From positions 129 to 64,128 of the forward strand of contig JAFRBR010000005.1 in NCBI GenBank assembly GCA_017404795.1: a stretch of 64,000 nucleotides of DNA. Reading direction: 5' to 3'. Every line of letters starts with the position of its first letter. Within the stretch, counting starts at the first letter, position 1. Shown in pieces: positions 19,304 to 22,919 of this stretch. The DNA comes from Candidatus Saccharimonadota bacterium (lineage in GTDB: Bacteria; Patescibacteriota; Saccharimonadia; Saccharimonadales; Saccharimonadaceae). The translations under genes were made by a program, and so were the position numbers. The notes beneath the pieces were generated by a model. It was not told where the DNA came from and searched no databases. It worked only from the letters and a program-made list of their open reading frames with translations.

Positions 19304-21070
19304 CTATTTCTCTTCCAAAAAAGCTCCGCTCTGTCGTGACCAGAGCTTGGCATATTCCCCGCCGGCCTTTAATAGCTCCTGATGTGAACCTCGCTCCACA
19401 ATCAAACCGTTCTTCAGTACTATAATTTCATCTAATCCTGCGATTGTCGATAGCCGATGCGCTACCACAATGGAAGTCCGGTCTTTCATCAAATTTGCCA
19501 AAGCCCCCTGGATTAACCCTTCTGATTCCGAATCTAGCGCCGAGGTGGCCTCGTCTAGTACTAGTATCGGTGCATCTTTCAGAATCGCCCGGGCTATTGC
19601 CACCCGCTGTCTCTGACCACCAGACAATTTTACTCCTCGTTCGCCGACCAAGGTATCATAGCCATCCGGCAGCTCTTTAATAAATTCATCGGCATTAGCC
19701 AGCTTCGCTGCCTGCAGCACCTCCTCGCGCGTCGCATTTATCTTTCCATAAGAAATATTTTCGTAAATTGAACGATGAAACAGCGAAGATTCTTGAGGTA
19801 CATAAGCAATCGCTTCGCGCAAGCTTTTCTGGGTCACGTCGCGGATGTCTTTCCCGTCAATATAAATCGCCCCCTTCATTACATCATCAAACCTCAGTAG
19901 CAGTTTTGTTAATGTAGTTTTTCCTGACCCCGACACTCCAACCAGCCCAACACTCTTCCCGGCCGGCACATCTAGACTAAAATCATTGAACAGTGGTTCT
20001 TTTTGTTCGTTGTGTTTAAAGGTAATATGGGCAATTTCAATTTTAGCTTGAGCGATTTTCAAAGGCTGGTCAGTCTTATCGTCGACAATCAGCGGCAAAT
20101 CTAGTATCCCCACCATTTCTTTAGCGTTCCCTAGCGACCGATTGACGGATCTAAGGATGTGGTTAATCGTCCACACATTCGAAAGTAGCGAATTGGACAA
20201 AGAATACAAGAACACCATATTTGCAATAGTCAGCCCAAACCAATCATGGCTCATAATTATCAAAATTAGAAGTCCTGCAAAAGTCACCAGATTTATCGAA
20301 TTCATTGATAGATTCCGCCAAAACGACACTTTGGCCGCTCGGAAGGTCGCTTGTTTAGTCTGCTTAGTGGCCCCACTGAATCGAGTTTCTTCTAAATCTT
20401 CGCGAGCGTAGGACTTCACCGACATTTCGTTTGTAATCGCGTCCGCTAGTTGTCCAGTCTGCTTGTTCTCGGCATCCGCCAACGCTTCATCTACTTTACG
20501 CGTTTTATAATAAGTGGTTATTGCTACTACCATATATATTACTGTGTATATCGCCAAAATTCCCGCAAAAGGTGCACAAACTATCGCCGTTACTCCAATC
20601 GAATAAAACGCCGTCAATATCAATGGGTAAAGATCCCACACAAAATTAGATTTCAGGCTAATAAACGCCCCAGGCAATTTGTTGGCCGCGCTCGTCAGTG
20701 ACCCAGAGAATTTATCATTATGAAAAGTCATTGACTGGTTTATCACCGCCGTAAAAGCCAGTTTTGACAAATATTCTCCACCCAGCGCATCCAGCGACCA
20801 ATCTAGCCAGTCGATCGACCGAAGCACCACCAAATTATTTGCCGCCGCTGACAAAATAGTCAGTAGTAATATACTGGTATAATTCGCGATTTCAAAATCT
20901 CCGTCCGATAGCTTACCGATAATTTCCGAAGTACCATATGGCACCACCACATTTGATAAGAAAATCCAAACTGGAACTAATGCTAACAGCAAGATCGTCC
21001 TAATTTTGTGTTGCATTAGTGTCTGCCAAAAGTAATGCAGAGTCCGCTTGATATTTTTAGATTGTGCCAT
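19304..21070 (-). CDS. ABC transporter permease/ATP-binding protein (MdlB/MsbA-like)
   Basis: 6-TM domain, GVSGSGKT, LSGGQRQR, LVLDEATSALD. Confidence 0.95.
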   Translation of the reverse strand: MAQSKNIKRTLHYFWQTLMQHKIRTILLLALVPVWIFLSNVVVPYGTSEIIGKLSDGDFEIANYTSILLLTILSAAANNLVVLRSIDWLDWSLDALGGEYLSKLAFTAVINQSMTFHNDKFSGSLTSAANKLPGAFISLKSNFVWDLYPLILTAFYSIGVTAIVCAPFAGILAIYTVIYMVVAITTYYKTRKVDEALADAENKQTGQLADAITNEMSVKSYAREDLEETRFSGATKQTKQATFRAAKVSFWRNLSMNSINLVTFAGLLILIIMSHDWFGLTIANMVFLYSLSNSLLSNVWTINHILRSVNRSLGNAKEMVGILDLPLIVDDKTDQPLKIAQAKIEIAHITFKHNEQKEPLFNDFSLDVPAGKSVGLVGVSGSGKTTLTKLLLRFDDVMKGAIYIDGKDIRDVTQKSLREAIAYVPQESSLFHRSIYENISYGKINATREEVLQAAKLANADEFIKELPDGYDTLVGERGVKLSGGQRQRVAIARAILKDAPILVLDEATSALDSESEGLIQGALANLMKDRTSIVVAHRLSTIAGLDEIIVLKNGLIVERGSHQELLKAGGEYAKLWSRQSGAFLEEK

Positions 21071-21088
21071 GCTTATATTATGGCACGA

Positions 21089-22054
21089 TTATTTATCCCA
21101 GTCAAACCCTTCGCCGTAATGGCCCCACATAGCAGTTTTTTCGTAAATCGGCCGTCGCAAATCCAAAAACTTAATAATCCCCGCCGGTGTCAAATCGTAC
21201 CCCTCGATTTCTTCAGGTTTACTATCAATTAACACGGTCTTTTCCAGAGGTTCCGCGTAGCCAATGGCGTAGGCTAGCCGCACCAAGACTTCGTGCGCTT
21301 TGCGCTCCCGCAAATAATCCACCGCGATTTTGCGCGCCATGTAAGCGGCTGAGCGGTCTACCTTTGTCGCATCCTTACCAGAATAGCAGCCCCCGCCAAT
21401 CGCCACTCGTGGCCCGTAGTTGTCCACGATTAATTTGCGACCAGTCAGGCCGGTGTCGGCGTCAAATCCACCTTGGTTCCAATCGCCAGCAGGGTTGATA
21501 TGGAGCTCTAACTTGCCAGCCAGTTTTTTATTTTTGACAAATTCTTGTACCAATTTTGCTAGTTCGTCATGAGGCACATTTTGAAAACTTGCCACCACCG
21601 AATCCACAGAGCCATCCGGCGCCAAGGTTATTTGAGTCTTGCCATCATATGGGTGTTTATCAAAAATAAACTGATTCAGCCGCCGCGCCAAAATCACTTC
21701 CAGCGGCAACATCTCGTCGGTCTCGTCGCAGGCGTAGCCAATCATGATTCCTTGGTCGCCGGCGCCGCCCGTGTCTACGCCTTGGGCAATCTCTGGTGAC
21801 TGCTTGACGATTTTAGTGTGGACTTCTGCGTCATCACCAGCAATCCGTTTAACGATTGCCGGAATATCCATCTCGTCGGCCGTTGAAGTGACCTCGCCAG
21901 TCACAAATACCACTCCGTGCCCGCCACAAGTCTCTACCGCCACACGCGCCATCGGGTCGGTAGCTAAATACGCGTCCAAAATCGCATCGCTAATCTGGTC
22001 GCAAAGTTTATCTGGGTGTTTTGGAGAAACGCTCTCCGCCGTTCGATAGAACAT
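21089..22054 (-). CDS. metK: S-adenosylmethionine synthetase
   Basis: TAESVSPKHPDKLCDQISDA, GAGDQG, DGKTQ, GLTGRKLIVDNYG, SGKDATKVDRSAAY; true start MFYR at 22054. Confidence 0.97.
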   Translation of the reverse strand: MFYRTAESVSPKHPDKLCDQISDAILDAYLATDPMARVAVETCGGHGVVFVTGEVTSTADEMDIPAIVKRIAGDDAEVHTKIVKQSPEIAQGVDTGGAGDQGIMIGYACDETDEMLPLEVILARRLNQFIFDKHPYDGKTQITLAPDGSVDSVVASFQNVPHDELAKLVQEFVKNKKLAGKLELHINPAGDWNQGGFDADTGLTGRKLIVDNYGPRVAIGGGCYSGKDATKVDRSAAYMARKIAVDYLRERKAHEVLVRLAYAIGYAEPLEKTVLIDSKPEEIEGYDLTPAGIIKFLDLRRPIYEKTAMWGHYGEGFDWDK

Positions 22055-22143
22055 ATCTTTCCTTTCTTGGTCGGATTTACCACCTTGGTTTTCACTAGGT
22101 TGGCAGGGGGTCACCGGGCCGTTCCCTCACCCCTTCTTGATAT
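22053..22143 (-). ncRNA. SAM-I riboswitch aptamer upstream of metK
   Basis: AUAUCAAGA..GGGGUGAGGGAACGGCCCGGUGACCCC..GCCAACC..GGUGGUAAAUCC..AAAGAUAU aligns element by element with the SAM-I consensus (UUAUCAAGA, GAGGGAnnGGCCCGnUGA, GCAACC/GGUGC, AAUUCC, AAAGAU). Confidence 0.9.
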
Positions 22144-22160
22144 TAATATCCCCATTATAA

Positions 22161-22781
22161 CTATTTTTTGGATTTTTTACCAGCTTTTTTCCGAGTTGCC
22201 GACTTCCGCGCCACCGACCGAGCGGTCTTGTCTTCAATCCCCTGCGCACGGTTGTGCGCGCCATAAATCATACTCGTCACCCCCACAATCAGCATATACA
22301 CACCAAAGAAGCGCATGAAGGTCATCATCTCAAACCCACCCGCGTTCAAAATCACCAGGCCAATCACACAGCCAGCTGCCCCCGCCAAAATCCGGATAAA
22401 CCGATCGGTCGGGTCCACCGTCGACAAAAACCCATGAAAAATATCAATCACCCCAGACAGAATCGTGTAAACCGAAATAATCACCACTCCTAGTACCAAA
22501 TTGTTCTTAGCAAAGAAGAGTAGCGCCACCGCCGCTATTACATCAATCAACGCATCGATAATCGAATTAATCCAGCCGTGCTTCTTGGTCGACGCATAAA
22601 GCGCGCCCACCGCATCCACAATCCCCATCGACAGTAGAAAAACACTCGCCAGTGCAACAATATTGTCTACTTCCGTCATCCCGCTAAACAAAATCACACA
22701 ACCAAAGGCGATTGCTAGCCCCCCGCGGATTAAAAACATTAACCAATGTTTGTCAATATATTTTCGATTTATCTTTGCCAT
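22161..22781 (-). CDS. HdeD/DUF308 family membrane protein
   Basis: W.MFLIRGGLAIAFG start, ~6 TMs, basic tail. Confidence 0.75.
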   Translation of the reverse strand: MAKINRKYIDKHWLMFLIRGGLAIAFGCVILFSGMTEVDNIVALASVFLLSMGIVDAVGALYASTKKHGWINSIIDALIDVIAAVALLFFAKNNLVLGVVIISVYTILSGVIDIFHGFLSTVDPTDRFIRILAGAAGCVIGLVILNAGGFEMMTFMRFFGVYMLIVGVTSMIYGAHNRAQGIEDKTARSVARKSATRKKAGKKSKK

Positions 22782-22919
22782 AAAAATCCTTTATTACTTA
22801 TGCTCATTATAGCACAAATTTTATGTCATTTTCAAAAATTATGCTATAATCAAAGTGCAACGATTTTATAATTTACGTGTACCGAGATTTTAATATCGAT
22901 ACGCAATACGAATTTAAAG

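What the first reader, a model, noticed from the sequence alone, without database searches (positions are those of the whole stretch)
22053..22143. Compact SAM-I riboswitch whose P1 helix includes the metK start codon
Seen: P1 5' AUAUC pairs with GAUAU, which contains the AU of AUG; the SD (AAAGGA) lies in a minimal P4 (CC-AAGAAA-GG); P3 shows GCC/GGU instead of GGC/GCC. There is no terminator, so control is inferred to be translational. Established: SAM-I usually acts by termination in Firmicutes. A metabolite-sensing switch in a highly reduced CPR genome is notable.
Basis: partly seen in the sequence, partly recalled or inferred. Interest (0 to 1): 0.6.

Follow-up and report, generated by a model that had tools for sequence, protein, structure and literature searches.

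The report
Compact SAM riboswitch overlapping metK start
A genuine SAM-sensing RNA switch sits directly on the ribosome-binding site and start codon of the SAM synthetase gene of a tiny Saccharibacteria genome, a compact but already foreseen way of shutting off translation when SAM is plentiful.

Summary
Window 22146..22050 (- strand) matches Rfam SAM-I (RF00162) over the full model at 61.3 bits (cut-off 44.4). P1 is AUAUC (22143-22139) paired with GAUAU (22057-22053). The A and U of the metK AUG (22054-22052) lie in P1. The SD (GGA, 22062-22060) lies in the 3' strand of a 2-bp P4. There is no room for a terminator. The host is a 692-kb Saccharibacteria genome close to Ca. Nanosyncoccus. The aptamer is not rare there: 75 of 151 family genomes and 31 of 151 phylum genomes have one, nearly always before metK, with strong covariation. 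Most relatives carry a terminator-like hairpin that also buries the SD. The platform-free "direct" form occurs in 11-12 of 76 family hits, in 10 of 11 closest named relatives, and in at least 3 lineages. The best explanation is direct translational repression of metK by SAM. This is inferred, not shown. Barrick and Breaker (2007) already predicted direct attenuation for SAM-I, with the RBS in the P1 3' side. Here the register is shifted: SD in P4, AUG in P1. I rate it a new variant of a known kind, of moderate interest.

The parts
22154..22159 (-). -10-like TATAAT box, directly after the stop codon (22163-22161) of the upstream DUF308 gene. The predicted transcription start is near 22147, 3-4 nt before P1.
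   Evidence: Sequence. The same TAG + TATAAT arrangement, 6-8 nt before the aptamer, occurs in close relatives L080-L084 and L087. The two-hexamer promoter scan did not call it. The transcription start is not mapped.
22050..22146 (-). SAM-I aptamer (RF00162), full-length match.
   Evidence: 61.3 bits against a gathering score of 44.4, E 8.9e-12, model positions 1-108 of 108.
22139..22143 (-). P1 5' strand, AUAUC.
   Evidence: alignment. In one search the P1 columns are 98.2% paired across 57 family sequences.
22105..22134 (-). P2/P2b arm with the kink-turn. AGGGG 22134-22130 pairs with CCCCU 22109-22105, and GGG 22126-22124 pairs with CCC 22118-22116. The loop bases CGG 22121-22119 are the 5' strand of the pseudoknot.
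   Evidence: alignment. In one search all 5 P2 pairs and 2 of 3 P2b pairs show changes on both sides.
22079..22104 (-). P3 hairpin, with base pairs G-U, C-G, C-G, A-U and bulged A22100.
   Evidence: alignment. In one search the pairs at cols 51-83 and 52-82 are invariant, and col 50-84 is CG in 3 of 57 sequences, including this one.
22072..22074 (-). J3/4 CCG, the 3' strand of the pseudoknot with CGG 22121-22119.
   Evidence: In one search all 4 pseudoknot pairs covary. The family U-A pair is C-G here.
22061..22070 (-). Minimal P4: CC (22070-22069), loop AAGAAA, GG (22062-22061). A closing pair U22075-A22058 is also called by the Rfam model.
   Evidence: alignment. The close relatives keep the CC/GG stem with loops of 5-7 nt.
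22060..22065 (-). Shine-Dalgarno AAAGGA. The core GGA at 22062-22060 is 5 nt before the AUG.
   Evidence: Sequence. GAAAGGAAAGAU(A/G)U is conserved in the direct-type loci.
22053..22057 (-). P1 3' strand, GAUAU. It contains the A and U of the start codon.
21089..22054 (-). metK (S-adenosylmethionine synthetase, 321 aa). The start codon is AUG 22054-22052.
   Evidence: ORF; Pfam N, M and C domains; query residues 5-321 align to residues 6-369 of 1fug_A.

Best explanation
The element is a functional SAM-I riboswitch in which the aptamer also serves as the expression platform. The mRNA leader is about 93 nt, from a start near 22147 to the AUG at 22054, and is essentially only the aptamer. When SAM is bound, the four-way junction closes. 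P4 pairs the two G's of the SD. J4/1 and P1 hold the spacer and the A and U of the AUG in a helix. The 30S subunit then cannot engage, and MetK synthesis falls. This is negative feedback on SAM synthesis. When SAM is scarce, the 5-bp AU-rich P1 and the 2-bp P4 are not held shut, and the SD and AUG become available.

Shown here: SAM-I identity, the helices and their covariation, the overlap with the SD and AUG, the absence of a terminator, and recurrence of the design in relatives.

Inferred: SAM binding, the ligand-dependent change in accessibility, and the transcription start.

Evolution (inferred): the design derives from the dual terminator/SD-sequestering platform of most relatives. In that platform the P4 3' strand already mimics an SD, because it pairs with the same anti-SD arm.
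For: - **Identity.** RF00162 matches at 61.3 bits against a 44.4 cut-off, over the full model.
- **Structure.** In the 57-sequence family alignment, 95.1% of cells are paired. With slid partners the figure is 30-42%. 26 of 32 pairs show double changes, and 0 of 500 shuffles reach the observed values. All 4 pseudoknot pairs covary.
- **Context.** Of the 76 family hits, 70 are followed within about 120 nt by the MetK N-terminal motif. One further hit (L074) precedes a MetK with a variant motif.
- **Start codon.** MFYRTAESV aligns from residue 2-5 to solved MetK structures, so no downstream start is possible.
- **Recurrence.** The same architecture occurs in 11 of 76 family hits, plus L041, which is cut by its contig end. 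It also occurs in L077, L078 and L080-L087, that is 10 of the 11 closest named relatives, and in L101 and L104. All have a G-rich P4 3' strand 5-8 nt before an AUG that lies in or abuts P1.
- **Independent lineages.** The direct label needs 4 changes on the MetK tree, at least 3 of them forced. A single clade is rejected, p-AU 0.0103.
- **No terminator.** None was found.
- **Poised P1.** The nearest-neighbour model gives P1 pair probabilities of 0.21-0.25, and an ensemble gain of only -0.33 kcal/mol from P1.
- **SD mimicry in relatives.** In dual-type relatives the aptamer tail pairs with the terminator 5' arm. The median z is -2.46, and 32 of 47 loci fall below -1.64.
- **Precedent.** Direct attenuation by SAM-I was predicted in PMC2258182 (passages read).
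Against: - No experiment or transcript mapping supports switching.
- P4 is only 2 bp. Enforcing the Rfam nested structure costs +10.5 kcal/mol in the nearest-neighbour model, which ignores tertiary contacts, the pseudoknot and the ligand.
- The same model leaves the SD G's mostly paired even without P1 (unpaired probability 0.03). It gives an opening cost of about 6.2 kcal/mol for the SD-AUG region in the ligand-free ensemble. An accessible ON state is therefore not demonstrated.
- One contig from an RNA library (X1 record 7, 22115-22274, 1 mismatch) spans the upstream gene's end, the predicted -10 box and the aptamer's 5' part. Read-through transcripts, or DNA in the library, cannot be excluded.
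- 2 of the 4 sampled genomes of the same genus have no SAM hit. L079 and L088-L092 have no aptamer. The switch is therefore dispensable.
Confidence: 0.75

Rival explanations
1. The aptamer is functional, but the main output is at the RNA level. SAM-induced folding, or the resulting loss of translation, exposes the early metK mRNA to Rho-dependent termination or RNase decay. Blocking initiation as such would then not be the main effect.
For: Most relatives combine transcriptional and translational control in one hairpin: 49 of 76 hits are the dual type. The downstream ABC transporter gene starts 18 nt after metK, so polarity could matter. The review PMC10907184 (passages read) notes that riboswitches can also act through Rho or RNases.
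Against: No terminator or rut-like feature was identified. The SD and AUG are physically inside aptamer helices, which makes initiation the first step affected. Any RNA-level effect would follow from that step. I did not check whether Rho is present in this genome.
Confidence: 0.13
2. The aptamer is a structural relic or a constitutive leader structure. It no longer switches, and metK is expressed at a fixed, possibly dampened, level.
For: P4 is reduced to 2 bp and P1 to 5 AU-rich pairs. The nearest-neighbour model disfavours the nested aptamer fold by 10.5 kcal/mol. Relatives without any aptamer exist.
Against: All 15 columns that are invariant in the 57-sequence family alignment are by definition kept here. 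Compensatory changes occur within the close clade itself: P2 reads GGGGU/ACCCC, GGAAC/CUUCC or GAAAC/CUUUC, and the pseudoknot reads CGG/CCG or CUGG/CCAG. The design is maintained in 24 loci across at least 3 lineages. A decaying relic would not covary.
Confidence: 0.07
3. The start codon is misassigned. MetK starts elsewhere, so P1 does not overlap the initiation site.
For: A longer ORF from GTG 22114 (341 aa) exists in the same frame.
Against: GTG 22114 lies inside P2 of the aptamer and has no SD. The 20 extra residues have no counterpart in relatives or in solved MetK structures, which align from query residue 2-5. A downstream start would delete the conserved RTAESVSPKHPDK motif. In 9 close relatives the sequence GAU-AUG-UUC-UAU is conserved.
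Confidence: 0.02

Closest known systems
SAM-I (S-box) riboswitch, Rfam RF00162, classical Firmicutes form with a terminator/antiterminator platform
   Same: It has the same aptamer: a four-way junction P1-P4, a kink-turn in P2, a pseudoknot between the P2 loop and J3/4, and a conserved core. It passes the Rfam cut-off and shows covariation. It sits upstream of a SAM/methionine gene and should have OFF logic.
   Different: It has no expression platform at all. P4 is cut down to 2 bp, and P1 is 5 bp. The SD and AUG are aptamer nucleotides.
'Direct translation attenuation' class of SAM-I riboswitches predicted by Barrick and Breaker 2007 (PMC2258182; passages read)
   Same: The start codon lies within 15 nt of the aptamer end, the RBS is buried in the conserved core, and no further platform is present.
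   Different: That paper places the RBS in the 3' side of P1 and finds the class mostly in Actinobacteria and Cyanobacteria. Here the register is about 8 nt further in: the RBS is in the P4 3' strand and J4/1, and the AUG itself is in the P1 3' strand. The host is a Saccharibacteria (CPR) genome. I could not see the paper's figures or supplements, which may list such cases.
'Dual transcription and translation attenuation' platforms (same paper), as found in most Saccharibacteria relatives
   Same: These relatives have the same aptamer, the same gene and the same SD-like AGGAAAG in the P4 3' strand. They are the likely ancestors of the direct form.
   Different: The relatives carry an 11-13-bp hairpin whose 3' arm holds the real SD, followed by U5-6 and the AUG. 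The window's locus lacks this 50-60-nt module.
Direct-occlusion SAM riboswitches: SAM-II/V, SAM-III (S_MK box, on metK of Lactobacillales) and SAM/SAH (review PMC10907184; passages read)
   Same: The RBS is part of the ligand-binding fold and control is translational. SAM-III also controls metK; that detail is recalled, not taken from a call.
   Different: These are unrelated folds (H-type pseudoknots or a three-way junction). The review's list of direct-occlusion classes does not include SAM-I.
Xanthomonas campestris SAM-I (PMC7270179; abstract and passages read)
   Same: It is an experimentally shown SAM-I that acts mainly on translation and sequesters both the SD and the AUG.
   Different: It uses a separate platform (P5-P7) with anti-SD and anti-AUG strands, and it also binds uncharged initiator tRNA. 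Here the sequestration is done by aptamer helices.

Membership tests
SAM-I riboswitch (RF00162) | Covariance-model score above the curated gathering score, over the full model | tested here: met
   61.3 bits against 44.4, model positions 1-108 of 108, E 8.9e-12. It is the best family within clan CL00012.
SAM-I riboswitch (RF00162) | Four-way junction of P1, P2, P3 and P4, with P4 lying between P3 and the P1 3' strand, supported by covariation | tested here: met
   7 helices, 95.1% of cells paired, and 26 of 32 pairs with changes on both sides. P4 in this locus is only 2 bp plus the closing U-A pair.
SAM-I riboswitch (RF00162) | Pseudoknot between the P2 loop and J3/4 | tested here: met
   All 4 pairs covary in the family. 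Here CGG 22121-22119 pairs with CCG 22074-22072. The family U-A pair is replaced by C-G.
SAM-I riboswitch (RF00162) | Kink-turn in P2 and a conserved junction core (J1/2 AAGA, the P3 A-U pair with bulged A, J3/4) | tested here: met
   The locus keeps all 15 columns that are invariant across the 57 family sequences, and it aligns without breaks in these regions. Which nucleotides contact SAM is recalled from the published structure, not tested here.
SAM-I riboswitch (RF00162) | Location in the 5' leader of a SAM or methionine metabolism gene | tested here: met
   The locus is immediately upstream of, and overlaps, metK.
SAM-I riboswitch (RF00162) | Selective SAM binding | not testable with these tools
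   This needs in-line probing, ITC or equilibrium dialysis.
Direct translation attenuation (direct occlusion) riboswitch | Start codon within 15 nt of the aptamer's 3' end (criterion of PMC2258182) | tested here: met
   The AUG at 22054-22052 lies inside the Rfam match, which ends at 22050.
Direct translation attenuation (direct occlusion) riboswitch | RBS embedded in the conserved aptamer | tested here: met
   GGA 22062-22060 forms the P4 3' strand and J4/1. The published description for SAM-I places the RBS in the P1 3' side.
Direct translation attenuation (direct occlusion) riboswitch | No intrinsic terminator or separate sequestering hairpin | tested here: met
   No sequence lies between the aptamer and the AUG, and no terminator-like site was found in the 5' part of metK.
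Direct translation attenuation (direct occlusion) riboswitch | Ligand-dependent change in ribosome access | not testable with these tools
   Nearest-neighbour modelling was uninformative. This needs toeprinting or reporter assays.

The most novel reading that the evidence does not exclude
Saccharibacteria have repeatedly, in at least 3 lineages, collapsed a dual terminator/SD-sequestering platform into an all-in-one SAM-I riboswitch of about 95 nt. The whole 5' UTR is then the aptamer. The P4 3' strand, which in the ancestor mimics an SD because it pairs with the anti-SD arm, has become the real SD. The start codon is part of P1, directly next to the P1 pairs that contact SAM's sulfonium in the published structure (recalled). 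This would be the first described SAM-I in which both initiation signals are aptamer helices. It may be the only riboswitch these genomes keep, and it could serve as a native translational control module for genetics in Patescibacteria.
Probability: 0.45. Interest if true: 0.5.

Novelty: new variant of a known kind. Interest (0 to 1): 0.36.

Why it matters
Very little is known about gene regulation in CPR/Patescibacteria. This work gives three things.

First, it shows that a SAM-I switch on metK is one of the few recognisable metabolite sensors in these roughly 0.7-Mb genomes. In this genome, no TPP, FMN, fluoride, preQ1 or purine riboswitch was found.

Second, it offers a natural series, from dual platform to no platform, that shows how an expression platform can be absorbed into an aptamer.

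Third, it points to a short native translational switch. A 2024 perspective on Patescibacteria names riboswitches as promising candidates for inducible expression in these bacteria (PMC11665869; passage read).

For riboswitch biology the gain is incremental, because direct attenuation by SAM-I was predicted in 2007.

Tried and rejected
- **Thermodynamic test of ON/OFF accessibility.** The nearest-neighbour model cannot represent the pseudoknot, tertiary contacts or the ligand. It penalises the 2-bp P4 by 10.5 kcal/mol for the enforced aptamer fold. The opening energy of the SD-AUG region, about 6.2 kcal/mol, changed little with assumed ligand bonuses of -6 to -10. I drew no conclusion from it.
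- **Upstream competitor hairpin.** GAUAU at 22150-22146 could pair with the P1 5' strand (MFE). It is not conserved in relatives and probably lies upstream of the transcription start. Rejected.
- **Conserved leader peptide starting at the P1-embedded AUG in platform-type relatives.** 34 of 64 non-direct loci have such an ATG, but the ORFs run from 1 to 358 codons with no pattern. Rejected as a uORF. I keep it only as a sign that the site was pre-adapted.
- **RNAalifold consensus.** It mispaired the pseudoknot strand UCC with the SD GGA instead of forming P4. I replaced it with the Rfam-derived structure for counting.
- **Metatranscriptome contigs.** There were 3 runs from 1 study, available only as contigs, with a best word share of 0.28. 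Contigs from relatives (90-99% identity) bridge the aptamer's 3' half and metK: X1 record 6 covers 21965-22092 and X3 record 14 covers 21693-22087. These data cannot show starts, strand or expression level, and DNA carry-over is possible.
- **Earlier findings of this scan.** Nothing was returned.
- **Literature on SAM-I in Saccharibacteria/CPR.** The searches found no paper describing one. sought a SAM-I with the SD in P4 or the AUG in P1 and found none beyond the papers cited. The figures and supplements of PMC2258182 may list such cases.

Full report
**Observation**

On the minus strand the window reads ...UAG-UUAUAAU-GGGGAUA-UUAAUAUCAAGAAGGGG...CCGACCAAGAAAGGAAAGAUAUGUUCUAUCGAACGGCGGAGAGC. 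A scan of the whole window against Rfam 15 at gathering thresholds gave four matches: three tRNAs and one SAM riboswitch. The riboswitch is RF00162 at 22146..22050 (-), with 61.3 bits against a cut-off of 44.4, E 8.9e-12, and model positions 1-108 of 108.

- P1 is AUAUC 22143-22139 paired with GAUAU 22057-22053.
- P4 is CC 22070-22069 paired with GG 22062-22061, around the loop AAGAAA.
- The base of P3 reads G-U, C-G, C-G where the consensus has g-c, G-C, C-G.

The long ORF on this strand contains MFYRTAESVSPKHPDK starting at ATG 22054-22052. It carries the three S-adenosylmethionine synthetase Pfam domains. It aligns from residue 2-5 to residues 3-40 of solved MetK chains, for example query 5-321 to 1fug_A 6-369. 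ATG 22054 is therefore the start. Its A and U are the two outermost P1 partners. The SD core GGA (22062-22060, 5 nt upstream of the AUG) is the P4 3' strand plus the first base of J4/1.

No terminator-like site lies between the aptamer and metK or in the 5' part of metK. The two sites in 20800-22900 are upstream, and their number equals the shuffle expectation.

**Organism and frequency**

The assembly has 691,946 bases in 27 contigs, is 94% complete, and has one SAM hit. The nearest MetK genes, at 80-87% identity, are on contigs labelled Candidatus Saccharibacteria or Ca. Nanosyncoccus, from animal-gut metagenomes (taxonomy). The CPR assignment is therefore right.

The switch is not unusual there. 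In an even sample of the same family, 75 of 151 genomes (58 of the 114 high-quality ones) have an RF00162 match at E <= 0.001, and 64 pass the cut-off. In an even sample of the phylum, 31 of 151 have a match and 21 pass the cut-off.

Of the 76 family hits (one genome has two):

- 70 are followed within about 120 nt by the MetK N-terminal motif.
- L074 precedes a MetK with a variant motif.
- L035 precedes a Cys/Met PLP enzyme, L046 a PAPS-reductase-domain protein, and L060 a weak 2OG-Fe(II) oxygenase match.
- L032 and L041 are cut by contig ends.

In this genome, five other common riboswitch families (TPP, fluoride, FMN, preQ1, purine) gave no match. The assembly is 94% complete.

**Structure support**

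I aligned 57 of the 76 family hits. Left out were 3 with long insertions, 3 whose 5' ends are cut off in the Rfam match, and 13 of the lowest-scoring hits. I counted the Rfam-derived structure on this alignment, including the pseudoknot.

- 95.1% of cells form standard pairs, against 30-42% when the 3' partners are slid by 1-3 columns.
- 26 of 32 pairs have changes on both sides.
- 0 of 500 shuffles reach any of the five measures.
- All four pseudoknot pairs covary. In this locus the family's U-A pair is C-G.

Relatedness inflates such numbers, but the slid control keeps relatedness. The locus retains all 15 invariant columns.

**Architectures in relatives**

Most relatives carry a 50-60-nt module after the aptamer. 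It has the form CUCCUUUCU...AGAAAGGAG-U5-6-AUG, an 11-13-bp hairpin whose 3' arm is the SD, with a U-run that abuts the start codon. By a simple rule, the 76 hits fall into four groups:

| Class | Hits |
|---|---|
| Dual (hairpin plus U-run at the start codon) | 49 |
| Other platforms, including classical terminators such as L014, L018, L025, L036 | 10 |
| Direct (start codon inside or within 2 nt of the Rfam match) | 11 |
| Unclassified | 6 |

L041, one of the unclassified hits, looks direct but is cut by the contig end.

A model built from the 57 sequences found aptamers upstream of 52 of the 80 best MetK homologues from named genomes. Of the 11 closest (MetK at least 80% identical), 10 are direct, with the same CC-(A)(A)AGAAA-GG P4 and GAUAUG. 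One, L079, has no aptamer. L101, L104 and L093 are also direct.

In all 24 direct loci the P4 3' strand is a G-run (GG to GGGG) followed by A-rich spacer. The AUG lies inside P1 or within 2 nt of its end. The non-Saccharibacteria Patescibacteria and the other phyla in that set all have at least 40 nt between the aptamer and MetK. The platform-bearing state is therefore probably ancestral.

On a MetK tree of 65 rows the direct label needs 4 changes, at least 3 of them forced by well-supported branches. The window's gene sits in a supported clade of 8 with 7 direct members. Holding all 11 direct rows together costs 67 log-likelihood units, p-AU 0.0103. This is a gene tree, not a species tree.

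**How the relatives switch, and what that implies**

In 47 dual-type loci, the 18 nt that end 2 nt before the aptamer's 3' end (P4 loop 3' part, P4 3' strand, J4/1 and the start of the P1 3' strand) form a duplex with the terminator's 5' arm. The median energy is -12 kcal/mol and the median z against shuffles is -2.46, with 32 of 47 loci below -1.64. Loop-specific complementarity differs from locus to locus.

The P4 3' strand (UCAGGAAAG) therefore competes with the true SD (AGAAAGGAG) for the same anti-SD arm, which makes it an SD mimic. In 34 of 64 non-direct loci an ATG follows it within the last 8 nt of the aptamer. The ORFs from these ATGs have no consistent length, 1 to 358 codons, so they are not a conserved leader peptide. 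Deleting the platform would turn this mimic plus ATG into the real initiation site. I infer that this is the origin of the direct form.

**Mechanism proposed**

SAM binding closes the junction. P4, J4/1 and P1 then hold the SD, the spacer and the AUG in stacked helices, which blocks 30S binding and lowers MetK synthesis. Low SAM releases them.

The 5-bp P1, with four A-U pairs, is marginal in the nearest-neighbour model: pair probability 0.21-0.25 and an ensemble contribution of -0.33 kcal/mol. That fits a ligand-dependent helix.

The same model cannot describe the bound state, and it does not show a clearly open SD in the free state. I treat the energetics as uninformative. The transcription start is inferred from a TATAAT box (22159-22154) that directly follows the upstream gene's stop codon. 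The same arrangement occurs in L080-L084 and L087. One RNA-library contig spans this region, so read-through, or DNA in the library, remains possible.

**Comparison with what is known**

Barrick and Breaker 2007 (PMC2258182; passages read) defined 'direct translation attenuation' as a start codon within 15 nt of the aptamer end. They also defined 'dual' platforms. They stated that for SAM-I the RBS is incorporated in the 3' side of P1, mostly in Actinobacteria and Cyanobacteria. The present design falls within that class but is shifted inward: the SD is in P4 and the AUG is in P1.

A 2024 review (PMC10907184; passages read) lists SAM-II/V, SAM-III, SAM/SAH and preQ1 classes as direct-occlusion switches, but not SAM-I.

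The experimentally studied translational SAM-I of Xanthomonas uses a separate platform (PMC7270179).

My searches found no paper describing SAM-I riboswitches in Saccharibacteria or Patescibacteria. The library is limited to open-access papers, and supplements were closed.

**Verdict**

This is a real SAM-I riboswitch of a compact, platform-free architecture that recurs in Saccharibacteria. I rate it a new variant of a known kind. Interest is moderate (0.36), mainly for the evolutionary series and for its possible use as a native control element in Patescibacteria.

Noticed in passing
L079:380-403, L088-L092 (upstream of the MetK match): Relatives without the aptamer have a -10-like box (TACAAT, TATACT or TATAAT) ending 6-8 nt before the metK ATG, with no SD. 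This looks like a leaderless metK mRNA.
   Followed up: no
16 nt upstream of the aptamer in L002-L076 (e.g. L012, L016, L023): 63 of 75 family loci carry an AACAA-like motif (typically GUUAACAA) between the -10-like box and P1. Its role is unknown. The window's own locus lacks it, because its -10 box is only 10 nt from P1.
   Followed up: partly
L002-L076, dual-type loci (aptamer 3' tail and the following 50-60 nt): The antiterminator partner of the terminator's 5' arm is mainly the P4 loop/3' strand and J4/1, rather than the P1 3' strand as in the classical S-box. The median duplex z is -2.46, and 32 of 47 loci fall below -1.64.
   Followed up: partly
L035:377-1543, L046:600-1250 (-), L060:637-1251 (-): In three family genomes the SAM-I aptamer precedes a gene other than metK: a Cys/Met-metabolism PLP enzyme, a PAPS-reductase-domain protein, and a protein with a sub-threshold 2OG-Fe(II) oxygenase match. 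One genome (G083) has two SAM-I copies.
   Followed up: partly
window 21089-22054 (-): MetK is short, 321 aa against 377-430 aa for solved homologues. The alignment shows several internal gaps, and the N-terminal Pfam domain is matched only to profile position 70 of 99. Relatives are similarly short, 311-346 aa.
   Followed up: no
window 19304-21070 (-) and 22161-22781 (-): metK is flanked upstream by a DUF308 membrane protein, whose stop codon abuts the -10 box. Downstream, 18 nt after the metK stop, lies a fused ABC transporter (membrane plus ATPase domains), which may be co-transcribed.
   Followed up: no
window 22115-22274: A 162-nt contig from an animal-gut metatranscriptome library (X1 record 7, 1 mismatch) spans the end of the DUF308 gene, the predicted -10 box and the 5' part of the aptamer. 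It could reflect read-through transcription or DNA in the library.
   Followed up: no
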